Made by a program: the position numbers and the translations under genes
From: Bacteroidaceae bacterium
GTDB taxonomy: Bacteria > Bacteroidota > Bacteroidia > Bacteroidales > Bacteroidaceae
Direction: 5' to 3'
DNA: 64,000 nt
NCBI GenBank assembly: GCA_017455585.1
Contig: JAFSZU010000028.1
Span: 3,220-67,219, forward strand
Notes under the pieces: model-generated
What the model was told of the DNA's origin: nothing
Databases searched by the model: none
The model's input: only the letters and a program-made list of their open reading frames with translations
Part shown: positions 6,471 to 64,000 of the stretch, piece by piece
Numbering within the stretch: the stretch's first letter is position 1
Layout: every line of letters starts with the position of its first letter

Positions 6471-9400
6471 TTATCTTTTCTTCGGGTTCTTGTTGAAGTG
6501 CCAGACGGCGTGGAGCATGACGTAGTGGGGGAGGGAGCGGTACCAGGTGACGGTGCGGCCCTGGGCATTGATGCTGTAGTCGATGGGCGACAGCTGGTGC
6601 AGGAGGTCGAAGGCCTGGAGACTGAGGATGAACCTGCCCTTTGCCAGGGACTGGCTGAGGGAGGCGTTGACAACGAAGTTGTTTCGGTTGAGGTCGGCTG
6701 TGCCGTAGCCGCGACGGCTGAACATGGTGCCGTCGGCGGCGAGGGTGAGGCCTCCGAACCTGGTGCCCCAGAGGGCGGGTGTGGTGTAGGTGGCTTCGAG
6801 TCCGTACTGGAAGTCGAGGGCGGAAAGGGAAGACCCACCCCCTGCCCCTCCCGTGAGGGAGGGGAGTGGCTGCGCAGAGTGCCGCCAGTTGATTGACCCC
6901 ACAGCGCGGACGTTCAAGGTCTTGCGGTTGTAGCGGATGTTCGCTCCGCTGTTGAGACCGAGGGTATTCACGGTGTTGACACTGCTCTCGTTTTCGCCCT
7001 CCAGCAAGGCGTGGTCCTTGGAATGATTCCAGTCTGCACCTGCGTCGAGATGCCACGTCCAGTAGCGCTTCTCGCCGATGGTGCGGTTGGTGCCGAAGTT
7101 GGCGCGGGCGGCGTAGGCGCCGCTGATGTTCATGGGTTTGTAGGTGCTGATGCCGGTGGCGGGGTCGTAGGTCAGGGACTGTGCGATGTCGCGATGGTGG
7201 TAGTCGAAGGAGGCAGAGAGGTTGTAGGAGTCGTTTCGCGGCCCGGTGCTGTCATAGTATCTGATGTTGAAGGTCGTCTTTGCCGTGGGTTTCAGGTCGG
7301 GGTTGCCCAGCTTGACGATGAGGGGCTGGCTGTCGTCGCGGAAGGTGATGCGGTCCAGCAGGAGGGTGCGCTCCTGGCTGAAGCCGACATTGAAGTTGAG
7401 GTCTCGCCGCCCGCCTTTCCACACGTTGCGATAGCGGAACGTGGCTTTAGGCAGGAACACGGTCTGGCGTGCCAGCGTGTCCAGCGTGCCGCGGTGGTAG
7501 TGGAGGCGTTCGCCGGACAGCGGCGTGCCCACCTCCAGCGCAAACCGCTGGTAGCTGATTTTGGCGTGGAACTGCGGATGCACATAGTAGGCGTTCTTGT
7601 AGAACATGAGACCCACGTCGTTGCTCCAGTCGCGGTCGCGGCTGTCATAGGAGTTCGCGGCATCGGTGATGGCGGTCAGGGCGTCAAGCTGCGAGGGGAG
7701 GAGGGGGGACAGGGAGGTGTCCTCGGCGGGAAAACCGCCGAGCACCAACGCATCGGGCTGTGAAGGACTGCCGGGCACCAACGGGGAGGTACCTTCGGGA
7801 GCGCTCGGCTTTGCCGCTTCGCTTTGCGAAGAACCCTCGGGAACGGTAACGGGGTGGTAGAGGTAGTCGCGGTTGTGCTGGCGGCGGCTGAAGAACCCGT
7901 CGCTGATGCCTATGCGCAGGGCGTTGGGCAGTTCCCATTGGTATCCCATGCGGCCGAGAAACCATGTGCTGCGGTTGAAGAGCGTGTTGGAGTTGTGGGT
8001 GGCTCCCCCATTCTCCTCCGAGGGGGTGGCCGTTCTTGTTTCATACCTTGTCGCACGCTCGCTCTCGTCGTTGCTGTGTTCAAAGTGGAAGAAGTATTCT
8101 AAATGCTTCTTGTCCTTGCCCACATTGAAGGATCCCTGAACATCGAATATAGCATTCCACGCCCGCCCCTCGCTGACGCCCACGGTGCGCTGGCTGACGG
8201 TGAGGCTGTCGCTCCACTGGTCGAAGGCGGAGTTGAACGAGCCGTCGCGACTGGCGTAGCTGTAACGGGCCAGGGAGTAGAGATAGAAGGGCTTGGACAG
8301 CGACAGCGTGTTGTTCAGGCTGAGCCTGCGGTTGCCCGCGCGGTTGAAGGACTCGGTGACGGACGTGGGTGTGCAGCCGTCGATGAACTGTTCGCGGCGC
8401 TGCTGCACGGTCTGCTCGTCGGTCGAAGAGGTGTAATCAGCGCTGAATGTCTCCTTCAGTTTGTCGCCCTTGGTCTGGTAGTTGAGTTCTCCGGCCACGC
8501 TGCGCGTCGTCAGCAGCGATCGCGGCTGGCGCGCCGGGTTCCACTGGTCGGACTGCCCGATATGGCGACCCTCGTTGACGTTATTCGCGTTGGCCAGGAG
8601 CGTGAAGCGCAGACGGTCGGTGAAGCCGAGGAGGAAGCCACGGGCAAGCCACCGCTCCTGAGTGCCTCCTGCCGCTTCTACATTGCCGATGTAGCCTTGG
8701 CTGTATTCGTCCTTCAGGTTCACGTCCATCACATAGCGGCGCGGCTCCACGTCGTAGCCCAGTGCCACGCTCTTGTCGGTCTGCTTCTCATAGACCTTCA
8801 GGTTCTTCACGGTGTAGTACGGCAGGTTCTCCAACAGCACCTTCTTGTTGCCGCCGAAGAACGAGCGGGAGCCGAGCAGCAGCTCATCCACCTTGCGCCC
8901 GTTGACGAATATCTCGCCGTCGACGTTCATGGTCACGCCCGGCAGCTGGCGGATGAGGTCGTCGAGCATGGAGCCGTCGGGCAGCCGGAAGGCCGTGGCG
9001 TCGTAGATGAGCGTGTCGCCGCGGTAGAACATCTTGATCTTGGTGGCCGTGACGGTCACCTCACGCATGGTCTTGGTCGTACCGCGGCGCATCTTCAATG
9101 TGGGCACTTCCACACCGTCCTCAGGCAAGGGACGGGGGATGGTCACCCGTTGCCACACGTCGTCGTAGCCCTCCTGGCTGGCGCGGACGAGGTACTGCGA
9201 CTCGGCGGCACTCACTTCGGCGTTGAACTGTGCCCGAACCATCTTCATACCGCTTCCGTAGAAGACAACGATTTGTGCGGAATCCACCACCACGCTGCTG
9301 TCCGCGCGCAGGATGGAAACCTTTGCATAGGGCAGCGGCATCTCCAGGAAACCGTCCTCCACACAGCCTGAGAGGTGCACCGTCTTGCCTGTGAGGTCTC

Positions 9401-20548: not shown

Positions 20549-20673
20549 AACCACAGATTACACAGATTACACGGATTATAGTCCTTTCCAATATAGAGAA
20601 TCTGTGAAATTCAGATAACAGTTACACAGATTAGAAGCAGTAAAGAATCTGTTTAATCTGTGCAATCTGTGGT
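20549..20673. mobile_element. MITE-like element with CACAGATT-repeat terminal inverted repeats (short form)
   Basis: Left AACCACAGATTACACAGATTACACGGATTA. Right GAATCTGTTTAATCTGTGCAATCTGTGGTT. Sits in the kdsA-kdsD spacer. Confidence 0.75.
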
Positions 20674-26949: not shown

Positions 26950-26960
26950 AATCTTAATAC

Positions 26961-27057
26961 TTGTCAACTTGTCAACTTGTCAACTTGTCAACTTGTCAAC
27001 TTGTTAACTTGTCAACTTGTCAACTCGTTAACTTGTCAACTGGTTAACTTGTCAACT
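26961..27057. repeat. perfect/near-perfect 8-bp tandem array TTGTCAAC x12 inside kor operon
   Basis: ttgtcaac repeated about 12 times with a few point variants (ttgttaac, tcgttaac, tggttaac). It lies 11 bp upstream of the korB ATG. Confidence 0.9.
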
Positions 27058-31066: not shown

Positions 31067-31074
31067 AATACTCT

Positions 31075-31207
31075 AATTCACAATGCACAATTCATAATTC
31101 ATAATTGGCTGCGCATGGTTCGCATGTACCGCCAGTCTGTTTATAAATCATGAGTTGTCATTGTCTGGGGGAAATAATTGTGAATTATGAATTATCAATT
31201 ATGAATT
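31075..31207. repeat. inverted pair of 32-bp AATTCATAATT-type modules flanking 69-bp core, between ABC ATPase and permease genes
   Basis: Left aattcacaatgcacaattcataattcataatt. Right aattgtgaattatgaattatcaattatgaatt. Confidence 0.75.
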
Positions 31208-33263: not shown

Positions 33264-33293
33264 TTTCAACTTTCAACTTTTAACTTTCAACTT
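33264..33293. repeat. 8-bp tandem repeat (TTTCAACT) between TolC and adaptor genes
   Basis: tttcaactttcaacttttaactttcaactt. Confidence 0.7.
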
Positions 33294-36340: not shown

Positions 36341-36501
36341 AGACCCACTCCCAACCCCTCCCGTGAGGGGAGGGGAGAGTTTGCAGTTAATATAGAAAAA
36401 TGAACTAAAAGATTATTAACCCTATAATATGACCCAGTAACTTCTCAACTCTCAAGCGCCAGTCGCGCCCCTCCCTCACGGGAGGGGTTGGGGGTGGGTC
36501 T
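36341..36501. mobile_element. MITE-like intergenic element: two inverted GC-rich hairpin modules flanking ~80 bp AT-rich core
   Basis: Left module AGACCCACTCCCAACCCCTCCCGTGAGGGGAGGGGAGAGTTTGCAG (36341-36386). Right module GCGCCCCTCCCTCACGGGAGGGGTTGGGGGTGGGTCT (36465-36501). It starts 1 nt after the stop of 34859-36340 and ends 8 nt before ATG 36509. Confidence 0.75.
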
Positions 36502-45494: not shown

Positions 45495-46661
45495 TTATCG
45501 CTGACTCTCGTAAAAGTCTTGATACTCAAGGGCTACGTGGATGTGGTCATGGTGGCGGCGGATATACTCGACACTGTCCATTTGCAGCTGATGGATATTC
45601 TCTTTGCCGGATAGCAGCCGACGGGCAATCTGGTCATAGACATCTTGCTCTGTGGGCTGCACATTGATGATGGGACGCAGTTCTGTCTCGCCCAGCAACT
45701 GGTATTGCTCTTCCTCGCCGCCGCCCACCACAATGAGCCCTTTGGCCATCGCCAAGAGGGCGTTCATGGCGGGGGTATAGCTGTAGAGCTGGTCCAGCAG
45801 CACGTGGCTGCTGTCCATCATCTGCTGATAACGGGCAAAGGGCACGCTCTCTGCCACCTGCAAGCCCACACGCTCAGGCCCGAAGTCGGCCTGCAGACGG
45901 TGCAAAGCGGCCAGCATGATGTCTGTTCCCTTGTAGGCTGACCGCGCACGCTGGATGCCGATGAAGAAGTTGAGGGGTGAGGGTTGGGGGTTGAGGGTTC
46001 TTGAAGGGTCAAGCGTCTCTGCGGGCCGAGCGGAGGAGTTTGGGTTGAGGGTGGCGGTTGGAGTGACGGTGGAGCGGTCGATGGGGAAGGGAATGAAACG
46101 TGTCTTGTCCGGGAAGAAGGGTCGATAACACATTTCATATTCATAGAGTCCGGTGATGATGCCGTCGCAGTCCTCGGCCATGCGCTGGTTGAGGGCTCCC
46201 TTGGGCCCGTGCAGCCAGTCGGCAATCATGGTGTCCATGAAAGGATAGCTGCGCAGGGTGGGGCCGAAGTTGAAGTCGCTGTAGCGGAACGTCTTGCAGT
46301 CCATGCCCACCCGCACCCAGTAGTGGTCGATGCCGAAGGCACCGAGGAAGACGCGCCCGTTGTGACGTCGCAAGAAGCGGTAGAAGGGCCAGATGCGCTC
46401 GCCCTTGAGGTCGATGAAGACGGGGTTGATGAGTTGCACGACATCATAGCCGCGCAGACGGGGCCAGATGCGTGCCAGGTCTGTGAGATAGCGGATGGTG
46501 CCGGTGACAGAGAGGCTGCGGCGCCGCAGGTCGATGTCGCGGGGATAGTTCTTCCAGCGATCGCCGTCGGACACCACCGTGACTTGATGTCCCAGGGTTC
46601 TCAGTCCCTGGCCCAACGTCCAGTGCACGTTGCTGTATTCGCCGATGAGCAGTATCTTCAT
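45495..46661 (-). CDS. glycosyltransferase (GT-B, family 1/4-like)
   Basis: MKILLIGEYSNVHWTLGQGLRTLGHQVTVVS.. with a C-terminal GT-B half. Sits in a glycan-locus context. Confidence 0.6.
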   Translation of the reverse strand: MKILLIGEYSNVHWTLGQGLRTLGHQVTVVSDGDRWKNYPRDIDLRRRSLSVTGTIRYLTDLARIWPRLRGYDVVQLINPVFIDLKGERIWPFYRFLRRHNGRVFLGAFGIDHYWVRVGMDCKTFRYSDFNFGPTLRSYPFMDTMIADWLHGPKGALNQRMAEDCDGIITGLYEYEMCYRPFFPDKTRFIPFPIDRSTVTPTATLNPNSSARPAETLDPSRTLNPQPSPLNFFIGIQRARSAYKGTDIMLAALHRLQADFGPERVGLQVAESVPFARYQQMMDSSHVLLDQLYSYTPAMNALLAMAKGLIVVGGGEEEQYQLLGETELRPIINVQPTEQDVYDQIARRLLSGKENIHQLQMDSVEYIRRHHDHIHVALEYQDFYESQR

Positions 46662-53263: not shown

Positions 53264-53480
53264 ACCACGGATTACACGGATTAAACAGATTCTTTCTGCT
53301 TCTCATCTGTATAGTTTTCATCTGTATTTCACAGATTTCCTAAAATGGGAAGGACACTGTGTAATCAGCTTGTATATATGATAGCACTTGCGTAACGTTT
53401 CACTCGAAAATCTGTGAAATACAGATAAAAATTGAAAGCCAGGGACACGTAATCCGTTTAATCTGTGTAATCTGTGGTGC
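53264..53480. mobile_element. MITE-like element with CACAGATT-repeat terminal inverted repeats (long form)
   Basis: Left CACCACGGATTACACGGATTAAACAGATTC. Right CACGTAATCCGTTTAATCTGTGTAATCTGTGGTG. An internal ATCTGTATTTCACAGATTT / AATCTGTGAAATACAGAT inverted pair is shared with the 20549 copy. Confidence 0.75.
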
Positions 53481-53503: not shown

Positions 53504-55357
53504 TCAGCTCTTCAGCCCCACGGTCTTGTTGAAGACAAGGTGGTCGGGGGTGGAATCGGTGTCAATGTTGAAGTAGCCGATGCGCTGGAACTGGAGGTAT
53601 GTCAAAGCGGGCATGTCACGCACAAACTTCTCGATGTAGCAGTGCTGGAGCACGTGCAGCGAATCGGGGTTCATCATCTGCTGCATGGCCTCGATGGCAG
53701 AGAGGCCCTCGCCCTGCAGGCGTGCCAGTTCGTCACGCGGGTTCTCCACCTGCCACAACCGTTCATACATACGCACCTCGGCGGGCAGACAATGTCCGCA
53801 ACTGAGCCAGTGCAGGGTCTTGCCCTTGATCTTGCGGTCGGCACCGGGCAGTCCGCTGCGCGTCTCGGGGTCGTAGGTAGCATAGATGGTGGTCACGTTG
53901 CCGTCGGCATCCTCGTCGAAGGGGTGCTCCTCGTCGCACTTGATGATGTAGGCGTTCTTCAGGCGCACTTCCTTGCCGGGAGCCAGGCGCATGAACTTCT
54001 TCTCGGCCACCTTCTGGAAGTCGTCGCGCTCTATCCATAGCTCACGTGAGAACTCGATAGTATGTGTGCCGTCCTCCGGGCGTTCAGGGTTGTTGACGGC
54101 TTCCAACTCCTCGACCTGTCCCTCCGGGTAGTTGGTAATCACGAGTTTGACAGGGTTGATGACCGCTGCCACACGGGTGGCGCGCTGGTTCAGGTCCTCG
54201 CGCACGGCACTCTCCAAGAGAGCGAAGTCGTTCAAGGCATCGTATGTGGTGTAGCCAATCTTCTGGATGAAGTTGACAATGCTCTCGGGCGAATAGCCAC
54301 GACGGCGGAAGGCGCAGATGGTGGGCATACGCGGGTCGTCCCATCCGCTGACGAAGCCGTTCTTGACCAGTGCCAGCAGGTTGCGCTTGGACATGAGCGT
54401 GTAGTTGAGGTTCAGCTTATTGAATTCTGTCTGGCGCGGGCCTTGATAAGTTGAAAGTTGAGAGTTCTCCAAGTGTGGAGCGACCAAGGTCGAGCGGAAA
54501 GTTGAAAGTTGACTACCGCTCTCTGCCTGGCTACCGCAATCGGCAATCCACTCTCGCATCCACGTGACGAAGAGGTCATACAAGGGTCGGTGCTCCACAA
54601 ACTCCAGCGTACACCATGAGTGGGTGACACCCTCTAAGTAGTCGCTCTGTCCGTGAGTGAAGTCATACATGGGATAGGCGTTCCAGCGGTTGCCTGTCTT
54701 CAGGTGCGGGATGTTCAACACGCGGTAAATCAGCGGGTCGCGGAACAGCATATTGGGGTGAGCCATGTCTATCTTGGCACGTAGCACAAGGGTGCCCGGC
54801 TCGCACTTGCCACTGTTCATGTACTCGAACAGGCGCAGGTTCTCCTCCACGGGACGGTCACGGAAGGGGCTGTTGGTGCCCGGAGAGGTGGTCGTACACT
54901 TCTGCTGGGCAATCTGCTCGCTTGTCTGTTCATCCACGTAGGCACGCCCCTGCTTGATGAGCCACACGGCGAAGTCCCACAACTGCTGGAAGTAGTCGCT
55001 GGCATAATAGACATTGGCCCACTGGAAGCCCAGCCACTTGATGTCCTGCTCAATGGCTTCGATGTACTCGGTGTCCTCCTTCTGCGGGTTGGTGTCATCG
55101 AAGCGCAGGTTACACGTGCCGCCATACTTCTTGGCCAGTCCGAAGTCCAGTGCGATGGCCTTGGCGTGGCCGATATGCAGGTAGCCATTGGGTTCAGGCG
55201 GGAAGCGTGTCTGGAACCTTCCGCCGTTCTTGCCTTCGGCCAGGTCGTTGATTACTTTCTGTTCGATGAAGGAGGCAGCACGCCCGGCCTCACCCCCCGT
55301 CCCCCTCTCCAAGGGGCGAGGGGGAGTAGTTACATTTGAAGAGTTGTTTTCGTTCAT
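53504..55357 (-). CDS. glnS: glutamine--tRNA ligase
   Basis: Class I HIGH motif (PEPNGYLHIGHAKA), LMSKR (KMSKS-like), and a conserved C-terminal anticodon-binding region. The start is set at ATG 55357 (MNENNSS). It contains repeat-derived inserts (see findings). Confidence 0.9.
   Translation of the reverse strand: MNENNSSNVTTPPRPLERGTGGEAGRAASFIEQKVINDLAEGKNGGRFQTRFPPEPNGYLHIGHAKAIALDFGLAKKYGGTCNLRFDDTNPQKEDTEYIEAIEQDIKWLGFQWANVYYASDYFQQLWDFAVWLIKQGRAYVDEQTSEQIAQQKCTTTSPGTNSPFRDRPVEENLRLFEYMNSGKCEPGTLVLRAKIDMAHPNMLFRDPLIYRVLNIPHLKTGNRWNAYPMYDFTHGQSDYLEGVTHSWCTLEFVEHRPLYDLFVTWMREWIADCGSQAESGSQLSTFRSTLVAPHLENSQLSTYQGPRQTEFNKLNLNYTLMSKRNLLALVKNGFVSGWDDPRMPTICAFRRRGYSPESIVNFIQKIGYTTYDALNDFALLESAVREDLNQRATRVAAVINPVKLVITNYPEGQVEELEAVNNPERPEDGTHTIEFSRELWIERDDFQKVAEKKFMRLAPGKEVRLKNAYIIKCDEEHPFDEDADGNVTTIYATYDPETRSGLPGADRKIKGKTLHWLSCGHCLPAEVRMYERLWQVENPRDELARLQGEGLSAIEAMQQMMNPDSLHVLQHCYIEKFVRDMPALTYLQFQRIGYFNIDTDSTPDHLVFNKTVGLKS
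54449..54513. repeat. AGTTGAAAGTTGA-type direct repeats inside glnS CDS
   Basis: aagttgaaagttgagagtt (54449-54467) and aaagttgaaagttgac (54498-54513). These are the reverse complement of the 33264 repeat type. Confidence 0.7.
55287..55329. repeat. GC-rich hairpin element in glnS N-terminal extension
   Basis: GGCCTCACCCCCCGTCCCCCTCTCCAAGGGGCGAGGGGGAGTAG. Encodes ..TPPRPLERGTGGEAG.. Confidence 0.7.
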
Positions 55358-55382: not shown

Positions 55383-55658
55383 TTATTTATCATCATAATG
55401 CCCGTATGCAGTTAGCACAAGAACCACGACTTGCATATCATGAATTTCATAGACAAGACGGTGTTTCTTGGTGATGCTGCGTGACCACTGTCCCGCACGG
55501 TCACCACTAAGCTGGTGGGGATGACCTGTGCCAGTGCGTGGATGCTCCATGAGTTCTTTCAACAAATCACCCAATTTAGAGAAAGCCTTTGGTTCACTCT
55601 TCTTCAAGCGAGCCATTCCCTCTTGAGCCAAAGAGGTATAATCCAAGTCATAAATCAT
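55383..55658 (-). CDS. type II toxin, Txe/YoeB family
   Basis: ..LLKELMEHPRTGTGHPHQLSGDRAGQWSRSITKKHRLVYEIHD..VLTAYGHY parallels the E. coli YoeB core ([26 protein letters not shown]...HY). Confidence 0.75.
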   Translation of the reverse strand: MIYDLDYTSLAQEGMARLKKSEPKAFSKLGDLLKELMEHPRTGTGHPHQLSGDRAGQWSRSITKKHRLVYEIHDMQVVVLVLTAYGHYDDK

Positions 55659-55915
55659 AAGCTATTGAGAAAGGCTTCCAGCTCCTCATGTGAATGGATG
55701 GTCTTGTACTCTCCCCGCTCATACTGAGCTTTGGCACGGTCAACCTTCGCAAAGAACTCTTCCTTGGTCATCAGCGTAGGGTCTTGCTGTTTGGCAGCGG
55801 CACGCTCCCGCTCCACGTCGTGGATGAGGCGGTCTGCCAGCCACTTCTTGTTTCTCGTACTCAGCGACAGAGACTGCAGAAAGTCCCAGATGCCGTTCAT
55901 CGTAATCGTTGCCAT
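55655..55915 (-). CDS. putative antitoxin of the YoeB-like toxin
   Basis: Re-started at ATG 55915 (MATITMNGIWDFLQ...). 86 aa. It overlaps the toxin gene by 4 bp. Charged helical C-terminus. No family recognised. Confidence 0.45.
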   Translation of the reverse strand: MATITMNGIWDFLQSLSLSTRNKKWLADRLIHDVERERAAAKQQDPTLMTKEEFFAKVDRAKAQYERGEYKTIHSHEELEAFLNSL

Positions 55916-55919
55916 CTTT

Positions 55920-56573
55920 TTAATCTTTAATGTTTTGCAAATACTGAGCATAGCGGGCGATGTACTTGCCCAGGATGTCAAACTCCAGGTTCACCACGGT
56001 TCCCTCCTTGATGCTGTGGAAGTTGGTGTTGTCAAAGGTGTAGGGGATGATGCAGACAGCAAAAGCCCCTTTCCCGGTTCCTCCTGTGGGGGGGAGAGAC
56101 ATGGTGGGTCGGCAGACGGTCAGCGACACGCCATTGACACAGACAGAACCTTTATCTACGGTGAAGTAGCCGCGGGCGACCATCTCGGCGTCTGCATCAT
56201 ACTCAAAGGTGAACTCGTGGCTGCCCGCCTGGTCTTCCACACGGATGCAGCGCGCCGTCTGATCCACATGCCCCTGCACGATGTGGCCGTCCAGACGGCC
56301 TCCCATCTGCATGGAGCGTTCCACGTTCACTTCGTCGCCCACTTGCAGCAGACCCAGATTGGAGCGTTCCAGTGTCTCGCGCATGGCTGTAACCACATAG
56401 GTTCCAGCATCGAGGTCGATGCGCACCACGGTGAGGCACACGCCGTTGTGTGCAATGCTCTGGTCAACCTTCAGCTCGCTGGTGAAGGGACAACGGAGCG
56501 TAAAGTGCAGGTTGTCCTGCTCACGTTCTATAGCCACCACAGTGGCCGTGCTTTCTACAATTCCTGAGAACAT
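55920..56573 (-). CDS. ribE: riboflavin synthase (alpha chain)
   Basis: MFSGIVESTATVVAIE...SIAHNGVCLTVV...VNVERS...GHIVQGHVD...GVSLTV..IPYT. This is the duplicated lumazine-binding domain pattern. Confidence 0.85.
   Translation of the reverse strand: MFSGIVESTATVVAIEREQDNLHFTLRCPFTSELKVDQSIAHNGVCLTVVRIDLDAGTYVVTAMRETLERSNLGLLQVGDEVNVERSMQMGGRLDGHIVQGHVDQTARCIRVEDQAGSHEFTFEYDADAEMVARGYFTVDKGSVCVNGVSLTVCRPTMSLPPTGGTGKGAFAVCIIPYTFDNTNFHSIKEGTVVNLEFDILGKYIARYAQYLQNIKD
56062..56113. repeat. GC-rich element (degenerate) inside ribE CDS
   Basis: AGCCCCTTTCCCGGTTCCTCCTGTGGGGGGAGAGACATGGTGGGTCGGC. Confidence 0.5.
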
Positions 56574-58417: not shown

Positions 58418-58696
58418 CGGAAAAAGCTTGTAACAAACGAGGAATTTTGGAAATTCTTTGCAAGCAAAGCGTCCTTTTAGGCCGAGCGAGCGCAATTCGG
58501 GCTAAGAATATGCAAAAACGGGGTCGAATGAGTACGTCCGTCCATTATTTAACATCTTTTATGAGTAATCTTTCCGAGCGTTTTGCGTTATATAGACAGA
58601 ACGTTTTCGATAAGCCATGAGCAGAGCCAAACTTGCATGAACAATACCATGGCGAGAAAATGAAGGATGCAATCCTGTGACTTAAAGTGAAGACTT

Positions 58697-59962: not shown

Positions 59963-62242
59963 TCAGATAGTTTCTTTTTTGGGTTCCCGATACTCCGAAG
60001 GGGTGATGCCGAACATCTTCTTGAACTGCGTGGAGAAGTAGCGGGGAGTGGTGAAGCCTACGCGCTCGGAGATCTCGACGATGGAGAGGTCGGTGTCGGA
60101 TAGTAGGACGGCAGCACGTTTGAGGCGGACGCTGCGGATGAAGTCGTTGGGCGTGATGCCCAACATAGTCTGCATGCGCTTGTAGAGGTTGGTGCGTCCG
60201 AGAGCCACGTCGCGGGCCAGTTGGTCAACGCTGTATTCCGTGTTGTCGAGGTTCTGTTCTATGGCTTTCAGAAGCTGACCGACAAGGGCTTCTTCCTCGC
60301 TGTTGACACCAATCTTGGAGGCATCGATGCGTACGTTATCCACGAATTGCTTGCGGGCTTGCTCGCGCAATTCAAAGAGGTGGTTGACACGCTCCTCGGC
60401 TTCGGCTTCGAGGCGGGCCCGCTTCTTCTTCAAATAGAATTCTATAAGCCCTATAAGCCCCATTAGCCCTATAAGCCCATAAATCATCTTCATCCACCAG
60501 GTGAGCCACCATGGCGGGCGGATGGTGAAGGGTATGGACAGGGCTTCGCCCCATTCGCCTCCTGCGACAGAGGCTTGTGCCTCGAAGACGTATCGACCTG
60601 GCTGCAGAGCGTTATAGGAGGCCGTGGCAAGTCCCGTGCCGCTGCTGTCGTAGAGCCAGTCGCGGTCGAGACCAACAAGACGATAGCGGTAGATGGTATG
60701 TTCAGGAGCTGCGTAGTTGAGGGCGGAGAAACGGAAGGTGAGGTAGTTCTGGGAGTGGGGGAAAAGCCCCCTCCCGACCTCCCTTAAGGGGGAGGGGACT
60801 GGCTGCCCGTTAACCTCGAAGCTGACGAGGTGGACGGGAAACGTGGTCGAATCAGCTACGAACCACTCCGGACGAATGGTAACGAGACCCATGGTGTGCT
60901 GCACGAACACCAGGCGCCCATCGTCCAAGAGGGTTGCTGCCCGCTCATCCATCGAAACCTGTGGCACGCCGTCAGAAAGACCCAAATTCAGAATGGGAAA
61001 TGGCTCGTGAGCTCCAACCCTGCTGATTCCGCTTGATGAGCCTACCCATATATTGCCCTCCTTGTCCTCCACAAGGCTACGTATGCAGTTGTTAGCTAAC
61101 CCCTCCATACGAGTAACTTCAGCACAATTATGAATTATAAATTGTGAATTATGAATTAAAAAGAGTCCATTCTGTGTTCCGAGCCACAATCGTCCCTTGC
61201 TGTCTCGCAGGGCGCAGTTGTATTTTTCTGTCCAACGTGCTATCTCGCTTGCTGGGGCAAACTCGTTGATGCTGTCGTGCTTGACATCAAGCAGGAAGGC
61301 ACCGTTCTGGGAATACACCAACACATCATTCTCCGTCAATGGGCAGGCTCCCACAATCCAGCGATAGTTGGCCTCTATCTGTGGCAGTTTGCGGTTTAAG
61401 ACATCGAACGAAAGGGCTTCCGGGTCGAAATAGCCGAGGTTGTTGCCGTTGTTACAAAGCAACAATCGGCCGTCAGGCAACTCTGTGATAAACACAATCC
61501 GATTATGTACGAAGCCTGGGACGTTGTCTTGTCCGTAGCGTATGGCCCTGCTCTCAGGCCCCAGGAAGTCGGACTCGGAACGGCAGTAGAGACCATTCAT
61601 GGTGCATTGCCATGCTCGCCCCTGAGAGTCCTGCATATAGCGGGCAGCATGGAGCAGGCTATCATTGTGTCCGATATAGATGGCCTGCGGACGCGGCGGA
61701 CGGACGTAGAACAAGCCGTTGCCACGAGTGCCTATCCAGCGACCACCCTGTCGGTCGGTCATAGCATGTGCCACCTTCGACGCAGTTCCCAGACTATCAG
61801 CTAACTGCTGCCAAGAATCATCAGGACTCTCGTAAGTTCCCTCTCCGGCTACCAACTGGTTCAGTTGTTCTGACGTAAGGCGCGCTTCCACATCATAACG
61901 AAATGCCCTCTCACGCGCATCGAACAAATAAAGGTGATAGAAGTCGCGCAGCCACAGCAGCGAGTCACCTTGCCACAGATGGGCATAGCCGCCAAAATGT
62001 TCCAGCCGATATGTGCGACTGAGGTCACACGAGATTTCCCGGAATGTCTGACCGTCGAACATACAGAAAGCGCCCTCGCAGTTCACCAACACCTGCCCGT
62101 TCGGCAGTTCCACCACCTGGCGCACTTCGTTCGTGATGAGTCCGTCGCCCACCGTATAGTGATGCCACACGTTCTGTCCGAAAGACATAAGTGTGCAGCC
62201 GAAAGATAACAATGGAATAACAATGTATAGGAAGCGTCTCAT
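59963..62242 (-). CDS. one-component transmembrane sensor-regulator: periplasmic beta-propeller/Y_Y_Y domain + TM + AraC-type HTH (no kinase or receiver)
   Basis: Re-started at ATG 62242 (MRRFLYIVIPLLSF). Reg_prop-like repeats. Y_Y_Y block (YRYRLVGLDRDWLY..GRYVFEAQA). TM helix. C-terminal AraC HTH (ISERVGFTTPRYFSTQFKKMFGITPSEYR). Confidence 0.75.
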   Translation of the reverse strand: MRRFLYIVIPLLSFGCTLMSFGQNVWHHYTVGDGLITNEVRQVVELPNGQVLVNCEGAFCMFDGQTFREISCDLSRTYRLEHFGGYAHLWQGDSLLWLRDFYHLYLFDARERAFRYDVEARLTSEQLNQLVAGEGTYESPDDSWQQLADSLGTASKVAHAMTDRQGGRWIGTRGNGLFYVRPPRPQAIYIGHNDSLLHAARYMQDSQGRAWQCTMNGLYCRSESDFLGPESRAIRYGQDNVPGFVHNRIVFITELPDGRLLLCNNGNNLGYFDPEALSFDVLNRKLPQIEANYRWIVGACPLTENDVLVYSQNGAFLLDVKHDSINEFAPASEIARWTEKYNCALRDSKGRLWLGTQNGLFLIHNSQFIIHNCAEVTRMEGLANNCIRSLVEDKEGNIWVGSSSGISRVGAHEPFPILNLGLSDGVPQVSMDERAATLLDDGRLVFVQHTMGLVTIRPEWFVADSTTFPVHLVSFEVNGQPVPSPLREVGRGLFPHSQNYLTFRFSALNYAAPEHTIYRYRLVGLDRDWLYDSSGTGLATASYNALQPGRYVFEAQASVAGGEWGEALSIPFTIRPPWWLTWWMKMIYGLIGLMGLIGLIEFYLKKKRARLEAEAEERVNHLFELREQARKQFVDNVRIDASKIGVNSEEEALVGQLLKAIEQNLDNTEYSVDQLARDVALGRTNLYKRMQTMLGITPNDFIRSVRLKRAAVLLSDTDLSIVEISERVGFTTPRYFSTQFKKMFGITPSEYREPKKETI
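60442..60478. repeat. 10-bp tandem repeat (CTATAAGCCC) encoding part of the sensor's TM helix
   Basis: ctataagccctataagccccattagccctataagccc. Encodes GLIGLMGLIGLI. Confidence 0.65.
60765..60806. repeat. GC-rich hairpin element inside AraC-type sensor CDS
   Basis: AGCCCCCTCCCGACCTCCCTTAAGGGGGAGGGGACTGGCTGC. Confidence 0.7.
61126..61157. repeat. 32-bp AATTATGAATT-type module inside AraC-type sensor CDS
   Basis: aattatgaattataaattgtgaattatgaatt. Encodes ..LIHNSQFIIHN.. Confidence 0.7.
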
Positions 62243-62412
62243 GTCATTAATCCTTGGTTTGCAAGGGCAAAAGTAGTAAAAACCCTTTAATGGACAGCAT
62301 AAAAGCGTCCAAAATCGTACATGAAGCATCAAAAACCGTCCATTTTATCGATGTGAACGATTCTTTCGGGCTGTTTCGAACGCATGATGATTAAAAAAAC
62401 TATCTCATTTTC

Positions 62413-62450: not shown

Positions 62451-64000
62451 ATGAAACGTATCCTCTCTTTCGCATTATTCATTTTTCATTTTTCGTTTTT
62501 TATTTCGTCGCAGACGACCGACCGTGGCTTCATTCATCCCGGCGGTCTGCACACGCAGACAGACTTCGACCGTGTGAAGGCACAGTTGGCAGACGGCAAT
62601 ACTAAGGTGAAACAGGCTTATGCCAAGTTGACGAGTGCTGCTTACGCACAGAGCAGCGTACAGACCTATCCCGTGGAGACCATTGTACGCGGCGGTGGAA
62701 GCGGTGAGAACTACATTAATGCGGCACGAGGGGCTACGATGGCCTACCAGAACGCCCTGCGCTGGAAAATCGGCGGTACGGAAGCCAATGCCAAGGCTGC
62801 CGTGAGGATTCTCATGGCGTGGTGCAATACGACGAAAGCCATTAGCGGCAACTCCGACCAGTGTCTGGCCGTGGGGCTCTACGGCTATCAGTTTGCACAG
62901 GCTGCTGAGTTGATGCGCGACTACGAAGGTTGGAGCCGAGAAGATTTCCAGAAGTTTCAGCACTGGATGCTCAAACTGTGGTATCCAAAGGCTATTAACT
63001 TTCTTCGCTCACGCAACGGCACTTGGGAAAACTCGAGCAAATGGTGGCAGGCACCCGGTCACTACTGGTCGAACTGGGGACTGTGTAACTGCCTCTGCGT
63101 GGCTATGATCGGCATCCTCTGCGACGACGTGTTCATCTACAATCAGGCCATGTCCTATTTCAAATATGACCAGTGCGGCACGTTCCGCGACCCGCGAACT
63201 GAGGTTCCTATCAAGAACGACGGCCTCACCGAGTTTCTCGGCAACCTCGTGGTGACTACTTCCGAGAGTGAACTTGAAACAGGTGCTTACGGGGAGCTCG
63301 GACAGATGAATGAGAGCGGACGCGACACGGGCCACTCGGCCATGGCGCTGGGCCTGGCCGTGGATATGGCCAAGGTGGGCTGGAACCAGGGCGACGACCT
63401 CTTCGCCTACATGGACCACCGCCTGGCTGCCGGCATCGAGTACGTGGCGGCACAGACGCAGAGCATCGAGGGTCTGCCGTGGGTGAACTACCACTATGCC
63501 AACAACGGCTATTACTACAGCGACTCGCGATCATGGCTGATGGAGGGACCTGCCCTCGGCGCACAGATGCGCCCCTACTGGGGAACGGTCATCGGCATCT
63601 ACGAGGGCGTGAAGGGCGTGCAGATGCCCTTCTCTGAGGTGTCATACAAGAACATGGGCATCGATGAGGGTGGTCAGGGCGGCACCAGCGGCGGCTACGA
63701 CCACTTAGGCTATAGCGTGCTTATGAACACACGCGACGAACAGCTCTGTCCTGCCGACCAGGTGCCCACGGAACTGACGCCGAAGATGGAGTATAGCGGT
63801 ACGCTCACCACGAACCTCATACCCAGCCTGGCACAGGAGAAGACGCGCAAGCTCATCAGTGGAAAGACCCTACTCCACAATGAGCTGGGAGGATTGGTCA
63901 ACACCTATACCTTAAATAATAACACGTGCGTGCCAGCAGGTCAGACGCTGAAGCTCATGCCTCAGCTGCCCGAGGGCGAGGAGGACACAGGACAGTGGCT
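62451..64000 (+). CDS. secreted polysaccharide lyase, alginate-lyase-family-like (3'-truncated by window edge)
   Basis: Hand-translated from ATG 62451 (MKRILSFALFIFHFSFFISSQTTDRGFIHPGGLHTQTDFDRVKAQLADGN...). It is open to the end of the window and is not in the track because it has no stop. A TACTTTTG box lies at 62413-62420. The family call was made by eye from the N-terminal FIHPGGLHT..DFDRVK pattern. Confidence 0.55.
   Translation, partial: MKRILSFALFIFHFSFFISSQTTDRGFIHPGGLHTQTDFDRVKAQLADGNTKVKQAYAKLTSAAYAQSSVQTYPVETIVRGGGSGENYINAARGATMAYQNALRWKIGGTEANAKAAVRILMAWCNTTKAISGNSDQCLAVGLYGYQFAQAAELMRDYEGWSREDFQKFQHWMLKLWYPKAINFLRSRNGTWENSSKWWQAPGHYWSNWGLCNCLCVAMIGILCDDVFIYNQAMSYFKYDQCGTFRDPRTEVPIKNDGLTEFLGNLVVTTSESELETGAYGELGQMNESGRDTGHSAMALGLAVDMAKVGWNQGDDLFAYMDHRLAAGIEYVAAQTQSIEGLPWVNYHYANNGYYYSDSRSWLMEGPALGAQMRPYWGTVIGIYEGVKGVQMPFSEVSYKNMGIDEGGQGGTSGGYDHLGYSVLMNTRDEQLCPADQVPTELTPKMEYSGTLTTNLIPSLAQEKTRKLISGKTLLHNELGGLVNTYTLNNNTCVPAGQTLKLMPQLPEGEEDTGQW

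What the first reader, a model, noticed from the sequence alone, without database searches (positions are those of the whole stretch)
54445..54540. Glutaminyl-tRNA synthetase carries a ~34-aa insert built from an intergenic-type AT-rich repeat
Between the conserved ..RPLYD and PRQTEFNKLNLNYTLMSKR blocks this GlnRS has LFVTWMREWIADCGSQAESGSQLSTFRSTLVAPHLENSQLSTYQG, which is 45 aa. E. coli GlnRS, as I recall it, has ..[35 protein letters not shown], about 11 aa.

The extra DNA contains two direct copies of AAGTTGAAAGTTGA (54449-54467 and 54498-54513). Their reverse complement, TCAACTTTCAACTT, is the tandem repeat found intergenically at 33264-33293. The peptide accordingly repeats SQLST twice.

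A second element copy (55287-55329) forms most of an N-terminal extension, ..TPPRPLERGTGGEAG.., ahead of the catalytic domain. Repeat invasion of an essential translation enzyme is unusual.
Basis: partly seen in the sequence, partly recalled or inferred. Interest (0 to 1): 0.75.

Follow-up and report, generated by a model that had tools for sequence, protein, structure and literature searches.

The report
Nested mobile mini-repeats inside GlnRS gene
The essential enzyme glutaminyl-tRNA synthetase of this rumen Prevotella carries, in frame and apparently translated, a 7-base tandem repeat with a 30-base mobile hairpin element inserted into it; the same tiny element sits inside many other ordinary genes of related bacteria, much like the "selfish DNA in genes" known from Rickettsia.

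Summary
GlnRS (53504-55357, minus strand) has 45 aa between RPLYD and PRQTEF. TCAACTTTCAACTT occurs twice in that stretch, and (TCAACTT)x4 lies intergenically at 33266-33293.

The insert is nested.
- Bacteroidales ancestrally have 16-20 aa here.
- Many rumen Prevotella carry a 35-aa allele containing a TCAACTY heptamer array. It is polymorphic within a species: 35 versus 20 aa at about 97% nucleotide identity.
- The window adds exactly 30 nt (54467-54496) inside that array. Deleting it restores a perfect five-unit array.

This 30-nt unit has two hairpins, and the second one covaries. It is a dispersed element.
- A pattern scan hit more than 120 metagenome contigs, in 92 distinct contexts. None is GlnRS.
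- About 30-40% of copies lie in frame inside real genes, using all three sense frames.
- Element length is a multiple of 3 in 30/34 copies inside ORFs, against 45/84 elsewhere.
- A GDP-mannose dehydratase pair shows a clean 30-nt filled/empty site at the same C^AAYTC position.

The N-terminal extension holds a different, GC-rich dispersed hairpin repeat. Other GlnRS loop alleles are built from further repeat families.

Best reading: translated, near-neutral selfish DNA at permissive sites. It is an RPE/REP/SDR-like phenomenon in Bacteroidota. How the element moves is unknown.

The parts
53504..55357 (-). Glutaminyl-tRNA synthetase CDS (617 aa, ATG at 55357, TGA at 53504-53506), the host gene
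   Evidence: ORF. PDB phmmer gives E=2e-176 to E. coli GlnRS. HIGH at residue 61 and MSK at 322. The N-terminal MNENxxS..VT is conserved in relatives, which supports this ATG as the start.
54440..54574 (-). Hypervariable loop L262-G306 between RPLYD and PRQTEF. The allele-specific part is I271-G306, 54440-54547.
   Evidence: The ancestral form is 16-20 aa, and more than 15 unrelated alleles of 24-49 aa occur in rumen Prevotella. Strains with 99.8% identical cores carry 20-aa or 35-aa forms.
54499..54512 (-). Heptamer array, 5' part (TCAACTT x2, encodes SQLST)
54467..54496 (-). 30-nt two-hairpin mobile mini-element, CGCTCG-ACC-TT-GGT-CG-CTCCA-CACT-TGGAG. It is inserted at TC^AACTC of the array. 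The core as matched by the family pattern is 54462-54497.
   Evidence: Unique in the window as a 30-mer. The family has more than 120 metagenome contigs. The covariance model scores 53 bits here. Deleting the 30 nt restores a perfect 5-unit array and the canonical 35-aa allele. The same 30-nt indel is seen in Gmd.
54448..54461 (-). Heptamer array, 3' part (TCAACTT x2, encodes SQLST)
55288..55327 (-). GC-rich hairpin repeat of a different dispersed family, translated as TPPRPLERGTGGEA in the N-terminal extension
   Evidence: Folds at -31.4 kcal/mol, z=-2.4. The 22-nt motif is found in 9 viral contigs and L187 with a conserved 3' GGGGTGAGG. The extension varies among close relatives.
33264..33293 (+). 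Intergenic tandem array (TTTCAAC x4.3) of the same heptamer. It lies between the stop of a minus-strand gene (product not checked with a tool) and the start of the next minus-strand gene (N-terminus reads like a lipoprotein signal; product not checked).
45992..46036 (-). Second, diverged copy of the two-hairpin element. It is in frame in a GT4-like ORF (45495-46661) and adjoins heptamer array 45969-45999.
   Evidence: Covariance model 34 bits, E=2e-4. Sequence. Pfam.
58448..58492 (-). Third, diverged copy of the element, intergenic, upstream of a CstA-like gene
   Evidence: Covariance model 27.7 bits, E=0.005. Sequence. Pfam.

Best explanation
The extra peptide in this GlnRS is translated selfish or junk DNA stacked at a permissive surface loop. 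It is not a functional enzyme module.

Step 1 (shown). In a subset of rumen Prevotella, the ancestral 11-residue loop end (RGETDNIEDNR) was replaced by an allele ending in YQG. That allele contains a tandem array of the 7-nt unit TCAACTY, the kind of microsatellite that litters the intergenic DNA of these genomes. The allele, and many unrelated alternatives built from other repeat families, segregate within and between species.

Step 2 (shown). In the window's lineage, a 30-nt element with two small hairpins inserted into the array between C and AACTC. This added 10 codons without a target duplication. The element is a dispersed, recently mobile repeat of rumen Prevotellaceae. It prefers AACTC-type heptamer arrays and is stop-free in all six frames. 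It is tolerated inside genes when its length keeps the frame.

Step 3 (shown). A separate GC-rich hairpin repeat forms part of the N-terminal extension.

Inferred:
- The loop joins the last helix and last strand of the Rossmann fold ahead of KMSKS, on the face away from the active site and the tRNA. Insertions there would be near neutral.
- The element is moved by a process that reads DNA hairpins. The most likely candidate is a single-strand HUH/Y1-type (IS200/IS605- or RAYT-like) enzyme acting in trans. Gene conversion between arrays is an additional or alternative route.
For: Nested anatomy. Deleting 54467-54496 gives TCAACTT-TCAACTT-TCAACTC-TCAACTT-TCAACTT and the peptide IADCGSQAESGSQLSTFNSQLSTYQG, which is the common 35-aa allele.

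Loop polymorphism. The loop is 16-20 aa in Bacteroides, Phocaeicola and most Prevotella. More than 15 unrelated longer alleles are interspersed on the tree. P0024 (35 aa) and P0064 (20 aa) have 99.8% identical cores and about 97% nucleotide identity, with a sharp right boundary.

Dispersal of the 30-nt unit.
These are 135 copies in 92 flank clusters, and none is GlnRS.
- There were 0 hits in viral contigs.
- The covariance model found 12 hits at E<0.01 in 1.49 Mb (the window, 80 related genome loci and three metagenome contigs carrying GlnRS), including two more in the window.

Hairpin 2 covaries. 116/120 copies keep a stem of at least 5 bp using many different sequences. Pair types are UA28/CG11/UG1 and GC26/UA7/CG6/AU1, and 0/500 shuffles reach the observed score.

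Copies in genes.
- 34/118 copies are spanned by long ORFs, 31 in sense, using all three frames.
- 10/10 of these ORFs tested have Pfam domains.
- Length is a multiple of 3 in 30/34 copies inside ORFs against 45/84 elsewhere, p=3e-4.

The peptide is not conserved. The same element is read in different frames in the window (FRSTLVAPHLE) and in L083 (PLGRRTLARQE), and it sits after array unit 2 versus unit 3.

Filled and empty sites. Gmd in L190 and L213 is 93.8% identical with a single indel. That indel is exactly the 30-nt element, at C^AAYTC.

Orientation. Intergenic copies show no bias relative to neighbouring genes, 15 sense to 17 antisense.

Other families.
- The N-terminal repeat belongs to its own family.
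- The L015 and L001/L002 GlnRS loop alleles match other dispersed GC-rich families, which are also found in frame in the window's OMP genes and in guaA.
Against: - Translation of the insert is inferred from frame conservation only. No proteomic or RNA data are available.
- The structural position is inferred from Rossmann-fold topology and the alignment to E. coli residues 245-252. The AlphaFold model was unusable (mean pLDDT 56).
- The older 35-aa allele keeps a Leu i/i+3/i+7 pattern while its DNA drifts away from perfect heptamers. That part may be under some protein-level constraint and so not purely junk.
- No transposase was found. An IS200 TnpA phmmer search of all ORFs in 2.27 Mb found nothing.
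- The array units flanking the element differ between filled and empty Gmd alleles far more than the gene average. That fits gene conversion at least as well as transposition.
- The origin of the non-repetitive leader of the allele (IADCG..AESGS) is unexplained.
Confidence: 0.8

Rival explanations
1. The insert is an adaptive, lineage-specific GlnRS appendage. It could be a docking site for a partner protein, a regulatory peptide, or a decoy under diversifying selection from a toxin or phage. Its repeat-like DNA would be incidental.
For: - The loop is hypervariable even within species, with several alleles maintained across species. Diversifying or balancing selection could produce that.
- The 35-aa allele conserves a heptad-like Leu pattern and the terminal Y-Q/S/D-G.
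- The insert lies about 15 residues upstream of the KMSKS loop.
Against: - The 30-nt element is read in different frames in two lineages.
- Identical repeat types occur in many unrelated enzymes, in all three frames.
- The ancestral 20-aa form coexists with the insert in the same species.
- Alleles are made of at least four unrelated dispersed repeat families.
- Nothing links the loop to any partner.
Confidence: 0.1
2. Everything arose in place by replication slippage and hairpin-templated mutation in an unconstrained loop. No mobile DNA would be involved, and the similarity to intergenic arrays would reflect only a shared mutational bias towards heptamer repeats.
For: - Period-7 arrays are strongly over-represented in these genomes: 150 arrays against 13 of period 6 in 1.46 Mb.
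- Heptamer over-representation in bacteria is known and has been ascribed to polymerase slippage (PMC4692102).
- Unit sequences are homogenised within arrays, e.g. ACTCTAC x3 in L009 against ACTCTCA x4 in L007.
- Gmd arrays vary in steps of 21 nt.
Against: - This cannot explain the 30-nt unit. Near-identical copies with conserved ends occur in 92 unrelated contexts.
- There is a clean filled/empty site.
- It also cannot explain the GC-rich families shared between GlnRS loops and distant loci.
- It remains plausible for the origin and turnover of the heptamer arrays themselves.
Confidence: 0.05
3. The insert is not part of the mature protein. It would be removed or skipped by translational bypassing, RNA processing or protein splicing, so that GlnRS is effectively of the ancestral form.
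For: - The insert DNA contains hairpins.
- Precedents for bypassing elements in coding regions exist in T4 gene 60 and yeast mitochondria (from my own knowledge).
Against: - All alleles seen keep the frame and lack stop codons.
- Copies of the element inside ORFs are strongly enriched for lengths that are multiples of 3. A skipped segment would not need that.
- There are no intein motifs, and 45 aa is too short for an intein.
- No Rfam family matches.
Confidence: 0.03
4. Assembly artefact or chimera: repeat reads were wrongly joined inside the GlnRS gene.
For: The data are metagenome-derived, and short repeats are error-prone in assembly.
Against: - The same 45-aa loop is in P0001, a 99% identical cluster of 9 member sequences.
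- The 35-aa allele is found in dozens of independent MAGs and assemblies.
- The ORF stays intact.
- Equivalent inserts recur in independent assemblies of Gmd.
Confidence: 0.01

Closest known systems
Rickettsia palindromic elements (RPEs; Ogata et al. 2000, as summarised in PMC10969869 and PMC3733652)
   Same: - Small palindromic dispersed repeats inserted in frame into many unrelated housekeeping genes.
- They are translated as extra peptide at sites compatible with the fold, and they also occur intergenically.
- They are interpreted as selfish DNA.
   Different: - RPEs are about 100-150 bp, and each family encodes a conserved peptide in one frame. They occur in obligate intracellular alpha-proteobacteria with small populations.
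- Here the unit is 30 nt and is read in all three frames.
- It is nested in heptamer microsatellites and occurs in free-living rumen Bacteroidota.
- There is no sequence similarity.
REP/REPIN elements and intragenic GTAG- or CGTC-tagged REPs, with RAYT transposases (PMC3733652, PMC3116915)
   Same: - 20-40-nt hairpin repeats, dispersed and often clustered or tandem, sometimes inside genes.
- Hairpin structure is conserved through compensatory changes.
- They are thought to be moved by HUH Y1 enzymes that act on single-stranded hairpins without target duplication.
   Different: - There is no GTAG or CGTC tag in the consensus.
- The unit has two different hairpins, not one palindrome or an inverted REP pair.
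- No RAYT or IS200-like gene was found near copies.
- The element has a strong association with AACTC heptamer arrays.
Small dispersed repeats (SDR4-6) of Nostoc (Elhai et al. 2008; not readable here, cited via PMC5861425, PMC3116915 and PMC2884548)
   Same: - Very small (21-27 nt) repeats judged mobile from presence/absence in otherwise similar sequences.
- They insert into other short repeats; HIP1 is reported as an SDR5 target.
- From my memory only, they are also found in conserved genes and near heptamer repeats.
   Different: - A different phylum, with no sequence relation.
- The details of SDR structure and targets could not be checked because the paper is not held.
- The SDR mechanism is also unknown.
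Heptanucleotide simple-sequence repeats (cyanobacterial STRR; Xanthomonas and Nostoc GGGAATC/GGGGAYT arrays; PMC4692102)
   Same: - Intergenic tandem arrays of 7-nt units are over-represented relative to other periods.
- They sometimes occur as inverted pairs.
- Their length and sequence vary between close relatives.
   Different: - In those reports the arrays are intergenic.
- Here arrays of many different units also lie in frame in coding regions. They change length in steps of three units and serve as landing sites for a second element.
IS200/IS605-derived minimal elements (PATEs) and their peel-and-paste transposition (from my own knowledge)
   Same: - Insertion without target-site duplication next to a short specific sequence.
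- The ends are defined by subterminal hairpins.
- The mechanism is strand- and orientation-specific.
   Different: - PATEs are more than 100 nt and can be matched to a parent IS.
- No parent IS or TnpA has been identified here, and the mechanism is untested.

Membership tests
Glutaminyl-tRNA synthetase (class I aaRS) | HIGH and KMSKS motifs, the class Ic catalytic domain, the GlnRS anticodon-binding beta-barrels, and close similarity to solved GlnRS structures | tested here: met
   HIGH at 61 and LMSKR at 321-325. Homologues carry PF00749, PF03950 and PF20974. E. coli GlnRS matches at E=2e-176 in two blocks that flank the insert.
Heptanucleotide SSR / STRR-like arrays | Head-to-tail copies of a 7-nt unit, at least 3 copies, and over-represented relative to other periods | tested here: met
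   Array 33264-33293 has 4.3 copies. The GlnRS array has 5 units once the element is removed. There are 150 arrays of period 7 against 13 of period 6 in 1.46 Mb.
Dispersed mobile repeat (generic) | Many copies in unrelated genomic contexts, plus presence/absence at orthologous sites in closely related sequences | tested here: met
   135 copies in 92 flank clusters. Gmd shows a filled and an empty site at 93.8% nucleotide identity with an exact 30-nt indel. GlnRS shows 35-aa against 45-aa forms.
REP (GTAG- or CGTC-tagged) / REPIN | A single imperfect palindrome tagged at one end by GTAG or CGTC | tested here: not met
   The consensus CCGCTCG-ACC-NNN-GGT-CGCT-stem-loop-stem-AACTC has neither tag on either strand and contains two distinct hairpins.
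REP (GTAG- or CGTC-tagged) / REPIN | Association with a RAYT (Y1 HUH) gene flanked by the repeats | tested here: inconclusive
   phmmer with IS200 TnpA against all ORFs of at least 90 aa in 2.27 Mb found nothing. Only fragments of genomes were available, and a single-sequence search is weak.
Rickettsia palindromic elements | In-frame insertion into functional protein genes, with the element translated | tested here: met
   34/118 copies lie in long ORFs and 10/10 tested have Pfam domains. Frame-preserving lengths are enriched, p=3e-4. Translation itself is inferred.
Rickettsia palindromic elements | Size of ~100-150 bp, a family-specific conserved encoded peptide in one frame, and sequence membership in RPE-1 to RPE-10 | tested here: not met
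   The unit is 30 nt and is read in three frames as PL[DG].., SARP.. or LRS... It occurs in Bacteroidota, not Rickettsia. No sequence comparison with RPE consensus sequences was possible here.
MITE | Terminal inverted repeats, target-site duplication, and a size of 50-500 bp | tested here: not met
   The filled/empty comparison shows no duplication, and the ends CGCTCG... and ...GAG are not inverted repeats. The length is 30 nt.
Cyanobacterial SDR elements | 21-27-nt dispersed units, mobile, and nested in other repeats and genes | not testable with these tools
   The primary paper is not held. Only secondary mentions were read. The behaviour is similar. Sequence and structure were not compared.
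Intein / intron / translational bypass element | Splicing motifs or a self-splicing RNA fold, with the segment free of frame constraints | tested here: not met
   No Rfam match. All alleles are in frame without stops. Copies of the element inside genes are enriched for lengths that are multiples of 3. The 45-aa loop is far too short for an intein.

The most novel reading that the evidence does not exclude
The 30-nt two-hairpin unit may be a previously undescribed class of ultra-small transposable element in Bacteroidota. On this reading it is mobilised in trans by a hairpin-recognising single-strand (HUH-type or other) enzyme. It uses heptamer microsatellites (C^AAYTC) as landing pads and colonises coding sequences in any frame.

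Together with at least three other mini-repeat families, it would turn particular surface loops of core enzymes (GlnRS, Gmd, Fcl and others) into hypervariable, strain-specific segments. Its activity may also help to create or homogenise the heptamer arrays.
Probability: 0.35. Interest if true: 0.85.

Novelty: new variant of a known kind. Interest (0 to 1): 0.72.

Why it matters
- **In-frame selfish DNA is not confined to reduced genomes.** Such insertions in essential genes are usually tied to the reduced genomes of intracellular bacteria such as Rickettsia. Here they are common in abundant, free-living rumen Prevotella with large populations.
- **A very small, well-defined unit.** The element is exactly 30 nt, has a precise insertion site and leaves clean filled and empty sites. 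That makes it a good handle for finding the enzyme that moves such mini-repeats.
- **Consequences for annotation and typing.** Peptides such as LSTLNSQLST, PLGRRTLA and SPSGDE in conserved proteins are repeat-derived, and the loops vary between strains.
- **A view of protein evolution.** It offers a natural experiment on how proteins tolerate, and perhaps later domesticate, random peptide insertions.

Tried and rejected
- **Local search for the 30-mer.** I looked in the window and in 1.46 Mb of related genome loci by pattern search and blastn-short. Nothing convincing turned up, and I nearly dismissed mobility. The metagenome scan with a degenerate pattern reversed that.
- **AlphaFold2.** A run on a 39-sequence alignment gave mean pLDDT 56, so I did not use it to place the loop. 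I ran no fold search on it. I ran no further search on a second run because the hit lists return only close relatives.
- **Rfam.** There was no match for the window at gathering thresholds, and none for a five-copy tandem cluster at E<=1.
- **Loop alleles as RNA or DNA hairpins.** Only some alleles fold better than shuffles (L015 z=-5.2, L040 -3.0, L002 -2.7). The window's loop does not (z=-1.3). A conserved loop-wide structure is rejected.
- **Array continuity test.** A strict periodicity threshold on 28-nt flanks left too few cases. I replaced it with flank logos and with direct filled/empty comparisons.
- **Transposase search.** IS200 TnpA against all ORFs found no hit. I inspected ORFs next to multi-copy loci L150 and L135 and found nothing transposase-like.
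- **Phage origin.** There were 0 hits for the element in IMG/VR.
- **Literature.** Nothing on such elements in Prevotella was found. Elhai et al. 2008 could not be opened.
Full report
**1. What is in the sequence**

The minus-strand ORF 53504-55357 encodes a 617-aa glutaminyl-tRNA synthetase.
- HIGH is at residue 61 and LMSKR at 321-325.
- It matches E. coli GlnRS structures at E=2e-176.
- The match comes in two blocks. Query residues 25-263 align to E. coli 6-244, and 306-616 to 253-546. So query residues 264-305 stand where E. coli has eight residues (245-252).

Between RPLYD and PRQTEF there are 45 residues (54440-54574). The 14-mer TCAACTTTCAACTT occurs on the sense strand at 54499-54512 and 54448-54461. 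The same heptamer forms a 4.3-copy tandem array at 33264-33293 between two minus-strand genes. That gives five matches in the window where shuffles give 0.02.

**2. Comparison with relatives**

The closest proteins and genome loci are rumen Prevotella/Prevotellaceae MAGs. Across 120 proteins and 72 of the 80 related genome loci in which the flanking motifs could be found, the segment is as follows:
- 16 aa in Bacteroides and Phocaeicola.
- 20 aa (LFVTWMKEWRGETDNIEDNR) in most Prevotella.
- In a scattered subset, many unrelated sequences of 24-49 aa that all end in Y-[QDSE]-G.

The commonest variant is a 35-aa allele...REW-IADCGxxAESGS-KLSTLNSQLST-YQG. At the DNA level it contains four to five tandem heptamers. 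These are ACTCTCA x4 in L007 and ACTCTAC x3 in L009.

The variants are interspersed with the 20-aa form on a tree built without the loop. P0024 (35 aa) and P0064 (20 aa) are 99.8% identical outside the loop. Their genes and flanks are about 97% identical in DNA, and the difference is confined to the loop plus about 20 nt upstream. So this is a presence/absence and replacement polymorphism within species.

**3. The window's allele is nested**

The window's allele differs from the 35-aa form by 10 residues. P0041 (L083) also has 45 aa.

The two extra segments are homologous in DNA but are read in different frames: FRSTLVAPHLE against PLGRRTLARQE. They sit after the second and the third heptamer respectively.

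Deleting exactly 30 nt (54467-54496, CGCTCGACCTTGGTCGCTCCACACTTGGAG) leaves a perfect five-unit array. The peptide then reads IADCGSQAESGSQLSTFNSQLSTYQG, the canonical 35-aa allele.

**4. The 30-nt segment is a dispersed element**

It has no other copy as a 30-mer in the window or in 1.46 Mb of related loci.

A degenerate pattern taken from the two GlnRS copies changed the picture. My rough chance expectation is below one.
- These are 135 copies in 92 distinct flank clusters.
- None is a GlnRS gene.
- None is in IMG/VR viral contigs.

The consensus has a constant 5' CGCTCG. Then come hairpin 1 (CG-ACC-loop-GGT-CG) and hairpin 2, followed by AACTC.

The 5-6-bp stem of hairpin 2 varies by compensatory changes: CTTGC/GCAAG, CTCGC/GCGAG, CTTGA/TCAAG, CTTTG/CAAAG, CTCTG/CAGAG, and the window's CTCCA/TGGAG.
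- 116 of 120 copies keep the stem.
- The two variable pairs show UA28/CG11/UG1 and GC26/UA7/CG6/AU1.
- All cells of this stem pair, and no shuffle in 500 reaches the observed covariation.

A covariance model (R1) recovers the GlnRS copy at 53 bits. It also finds two diverged copies in the window:
- 45992-46036 lies in frame in a GT4-like gene beside another heptamer array.
- 58448-58492 is intergenic, upstream of a CstA-like gene.

In 1.49 Mb (the window, 80 related genome loci and three metagenome contigs carrying GlnRS) the model finds 12 hits at E<0.01. In 0.67 Mb of the loci seeded by the pattern it finds 136.

The 5' flank consensus is AACTCT-C and the 3' flank is AACTC-TC-AACTC. The element therefore usually sits inside TCAACTC-type arrays. 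Tandem 37-nt copies also occur, five of them in L135.

**5. It lives inside genes**

- 34 of 118 unique copies are spanned by ORFs with at least 60 codons on each side. 31 are in sense, and all three sense frames are used (PL[DG].., SARP.., LRS..).
- A second classification finds 34 copies inside ORFs of at least 150 aa and 45 clearly intergenic.
- All ten ORFs tested have Pfam domains flanking or spanning the insert: GH31, a hybrid two-component regulator, an ATP-grasp enzyme, a PD-(D/E)XK nuclease, a PNGase-like protein, a purple acid phosphatase, DUF5686, GDP-mannose 4,6-dehydratase, a MiaB-like enzyme and a GlcNAc 2-epimerase-like protein.
- Element length is a multiple of three in 30/34 copies inside ORFs against 45/84 of the rest (Fisher p=3e-4). 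This is the signature expected if the copies in genes are translated.
- The sense bias has a simple explanation. The reverse complement of TCAACTC arrays contains TGA in every frame.
- Intergenic copies between co-directional genes show no orientation bias, 15 to 17. That argues against an RNA-level role.

**6. Independent replication in another gene**

Homologues of the GDP-mannose dehydratase (Gmd) that carries a copy in L190 show the same series as GlnRS:
- A 9-aa ancestral loop, IDVATGKVL.
- 22-aa array-only alleles, IVKSIDSQLSTLNSQLSVGDIL.
- 30-36-aa alleles with array plus element, in each of the three frames.
- Arrays whose length steps by 7 aa, which is three heptamers: 29, 36, 43 and 50 aa.

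At the DNA level, L190 (filled) and L213 (empty) are 93.8% identical with a single indel. The indel is exactly the 30-nt element, between C and AAYTC, with no target duplication and no junction ambiguity.

Other genes behave similarly. GDP-fucose synthase in five loci has a hypervariable loop encoded by heptamer arrays. UDP-glucose dehydrogenase and GMP synthase in L135, and a MiaB-like gene in L141, carry related inserts.

**7. The other repeat families**

The N-terminal extension (TPPRPLERGTGGEA, 55288-55327) folds as a GC-rich hairpin at -31.4 kcal/mol, z=-2.4. Its 22-nt core, with a conserved GGGGTGAGG tail, recurs in nine viral contigs and in L187. It is a genuine dispersed repeat, but of another family than the loop element.

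The start codon is supported by the conserved MN(E/D)N..S..VT of relatives. There is no in-frame ATG or GTG between the element and the conserved SFIEQK; the only in-frame start-type codon is a TTG inside the hairpin loop.

Other GlnRS loop alleles are made of further families:
- L015 carries the ACCCACCCCCAACCCCTCCC...GGGAGGGGCAGGGGGTGGGT palindrome. In the window this family also lies in frame in two outer-membrane beta-barrel genes and occurs as an intergenic inverted pair.
- L001 and L002 carry a GTGTCCCCCTCGGGGGAC family, which is also found twice inside guaA in L135.
- L039 and L040 carry inverted pairs of AT-rich 7- or 8-nt arrays.

So this loop is a hot spot that collects whatever small repeats the genome carries.

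**8. How it most likely works**

Shown: nested repeat DNA, dispersed and recently mobile, kept in frame.

Inferred:
- *The loop is a permissive site.* It connects the last helix (RPLYDLFVTWM..) and last strand (PRQTEF..) of the Rossmann fold. In a Rossmann fold, helix-to-strand connections lie on the face opposite the active site. The loop already varies from 8 to 20 residues among ordinary GlnRS. I therefore expect the insert to be a solvent-exposed, largely irrelevant appendage. The AlphaFold model was too poor to test this (mean pLDDT 56).
- *The mobilisation mechanism is open.* Three features point to a hairpin-reading single-strand process of the IS200/IS605/RAYT type: conserved ends, two hairpins maintained by compensatory change, and insertion next to a short motif without duplication. 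Against this, no such gene was found. In addition, the array units next to the element differ between filled and empty Gmd alleles much more than the gene average. That would fit copy-paste by gene conversion between arrays.

The heptamer arrays themselves belong to a known phenomenon: heptamer SSRs are over-represented in bacteria, possibly because of polymerase slippage (PMC4692102). In these loci there are 150 arrays of period 7 against 13 of period 6.

**9. Comparison with what is known**

It works like Rickettsia palindromic elements (in-frame selfish DNA; PMC10969869) and intragenic REPs (PMC3733652). It resembles the very small dispersed repeats of Nostoc (Elhai 2008; secondary citations only).

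It is not a member of any of these:
- It has no GTAG or CGTC tag.
- It is 30 nt long, with two hairpins.
- It is read in three frames.
- It comes from a different phylum.
- It has no terminal inverted repeats and no target duplication.

I found no description of such elements in Prevotella in the held literature, and no Rfam family matches.

**10. Verdict**

GlnRS is one of many genes in these bacteria that carry translated mini-repeats.

I rate it a new variant of a known kind, with interest 0.72. The main uncertainties are:
- Direct proof that the insert is translated.
- The structural position of the loop.
- The mobilisation mechanism.

Noticed in passing
window 45969-46036 (-), within ORF 45495-46661: A second, diverged copy of the 30-nt two-hairpin element adjoins a GTTGAGG x4.4 heptamer array. 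Both lie in frame in a GT4-like glycosyltransferase (peptide ..TLNPNSSARPAETLDPSRTLNPQPSPLN..).
   Followed up: partly
window 58448-58492 (-): A third, diverged copy of the element (covariance model 27.7 bits) lies in the intergenic region upstream of a CstA-like gene.
   Followed up: partly
window 4105-4124, 6833-6853, 36343-36362 and 36480-36499: A GC-rich palindromic repeat family (ACCCACCCCCAACCCCTCCC / GGGAGGGGCAGGGGGTGGGT) lies in frame in two outer-membrane beta-barrel family ORFs and occurs as an intergenic inverted pair. The same family forms the GlnRS loop allele of locus L015.
   Followed up: partly
window 62473-62505 (+): A heptamer array (CATTTTT x4.7) encodes the hydrophobic core of a signal peptide (MKRILSFALFIFHFSFFISS...). 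So arrays also build signal sequences.
   Followed up: no
window 60442-60482 and 61126-61158, inside ORF 59966-62332 (-): A 9-nt array (CTATAAGCC x4.7, peptide GLIGLMGLIGLI, which looks like a transmembrane segment) and a heptamer array (AATTATG x4.7) lie within the long ORF of a regulator resembling a hybrid two-component system (HTCS). Whether the upstream 395 codons belong to the gene is unclear.
   Followed up: no
window 31074-31207, 20552-20671 and 53266-53476: Inverted pairs of short tandem arrays (TAATTCA, or CACAGATTA 9-mers) flank 70-160 nt of intergenic DNA. One pair lies directly downstream of GlnRS. The architecture is a hairpin whose arms are microsatellites. Its function is unknown.
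   Followed up: no
window 26959-27057: (ACTTGTCA) x12, an 8-nt array, abuts the start codon of a minus-strand gene. It reads TTGACAAG x12 on the sense strand.
   Followed up: no
window 55383-55981 (-): A YoeB-like toxin gene and a small upstream ORF, presumably the antitoxin, sit immediately upstream of GlnRS. The toxin's stop overlaps the longest in-frame GlnRS start candidate.
   Followed up: partly
all loci L001-L080 plus the window (1.46 Mb): Tandem arrays of period 7 with at least 3 copies number 150, against 13 of period 6, 53 of period 8 and 38 of period 9. Their units are very diverse. This is a genome-wide heptamer microsatellite habit in rumen Prevotella.
   Followed up: partly
P0121-P0240 (Gmd homologues); L190:1160-1260; L213: GDP-mannose dehydratase has its own hypervariable loop. 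Forms seen are a 9-aa ancestral loop, 22-aa array-only alleles, 30-36-aa alleles with array plus element in three frames, and arrays growing in steps of 7 aa (29/36/43/50).
   Followed up: yes
L010, L017, L019, L021 and L031 at about 16.7-16.8 kb: GDP-fucose synthase carries a heptamer-array-encoded loop, VTGEGL[..]K(K)VL. Its unit differs in each species: CTCTCAC, TCAATGG, TCAATCT or ATTGTCA.
   Followed up: partly
L135 5875-10138; L141 10494-12071: Three further host genes carry in-frame repeats. UDP-glucose dehydrogenase has KLSTLNSQLST. GMP synthase has two GC-hairpin inserts (..VSPSGDERGAY..). A MiaB-like enzyme has both the 30-nt element and a long Ser/Pro/Leu low-complexity insert. In L135, five tandem 37-nt element copies lie in the ugd-upxY intergenic region.
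   Followed up: no
P0001 versus window, N-terminus (window 55300-55316): The 99%-identical relative differs in the loop of the N-terminal GC hairpin, PWVWG against PLERG. The apical loop of that repeat is a local mutation hot spot.
   Followed up: no
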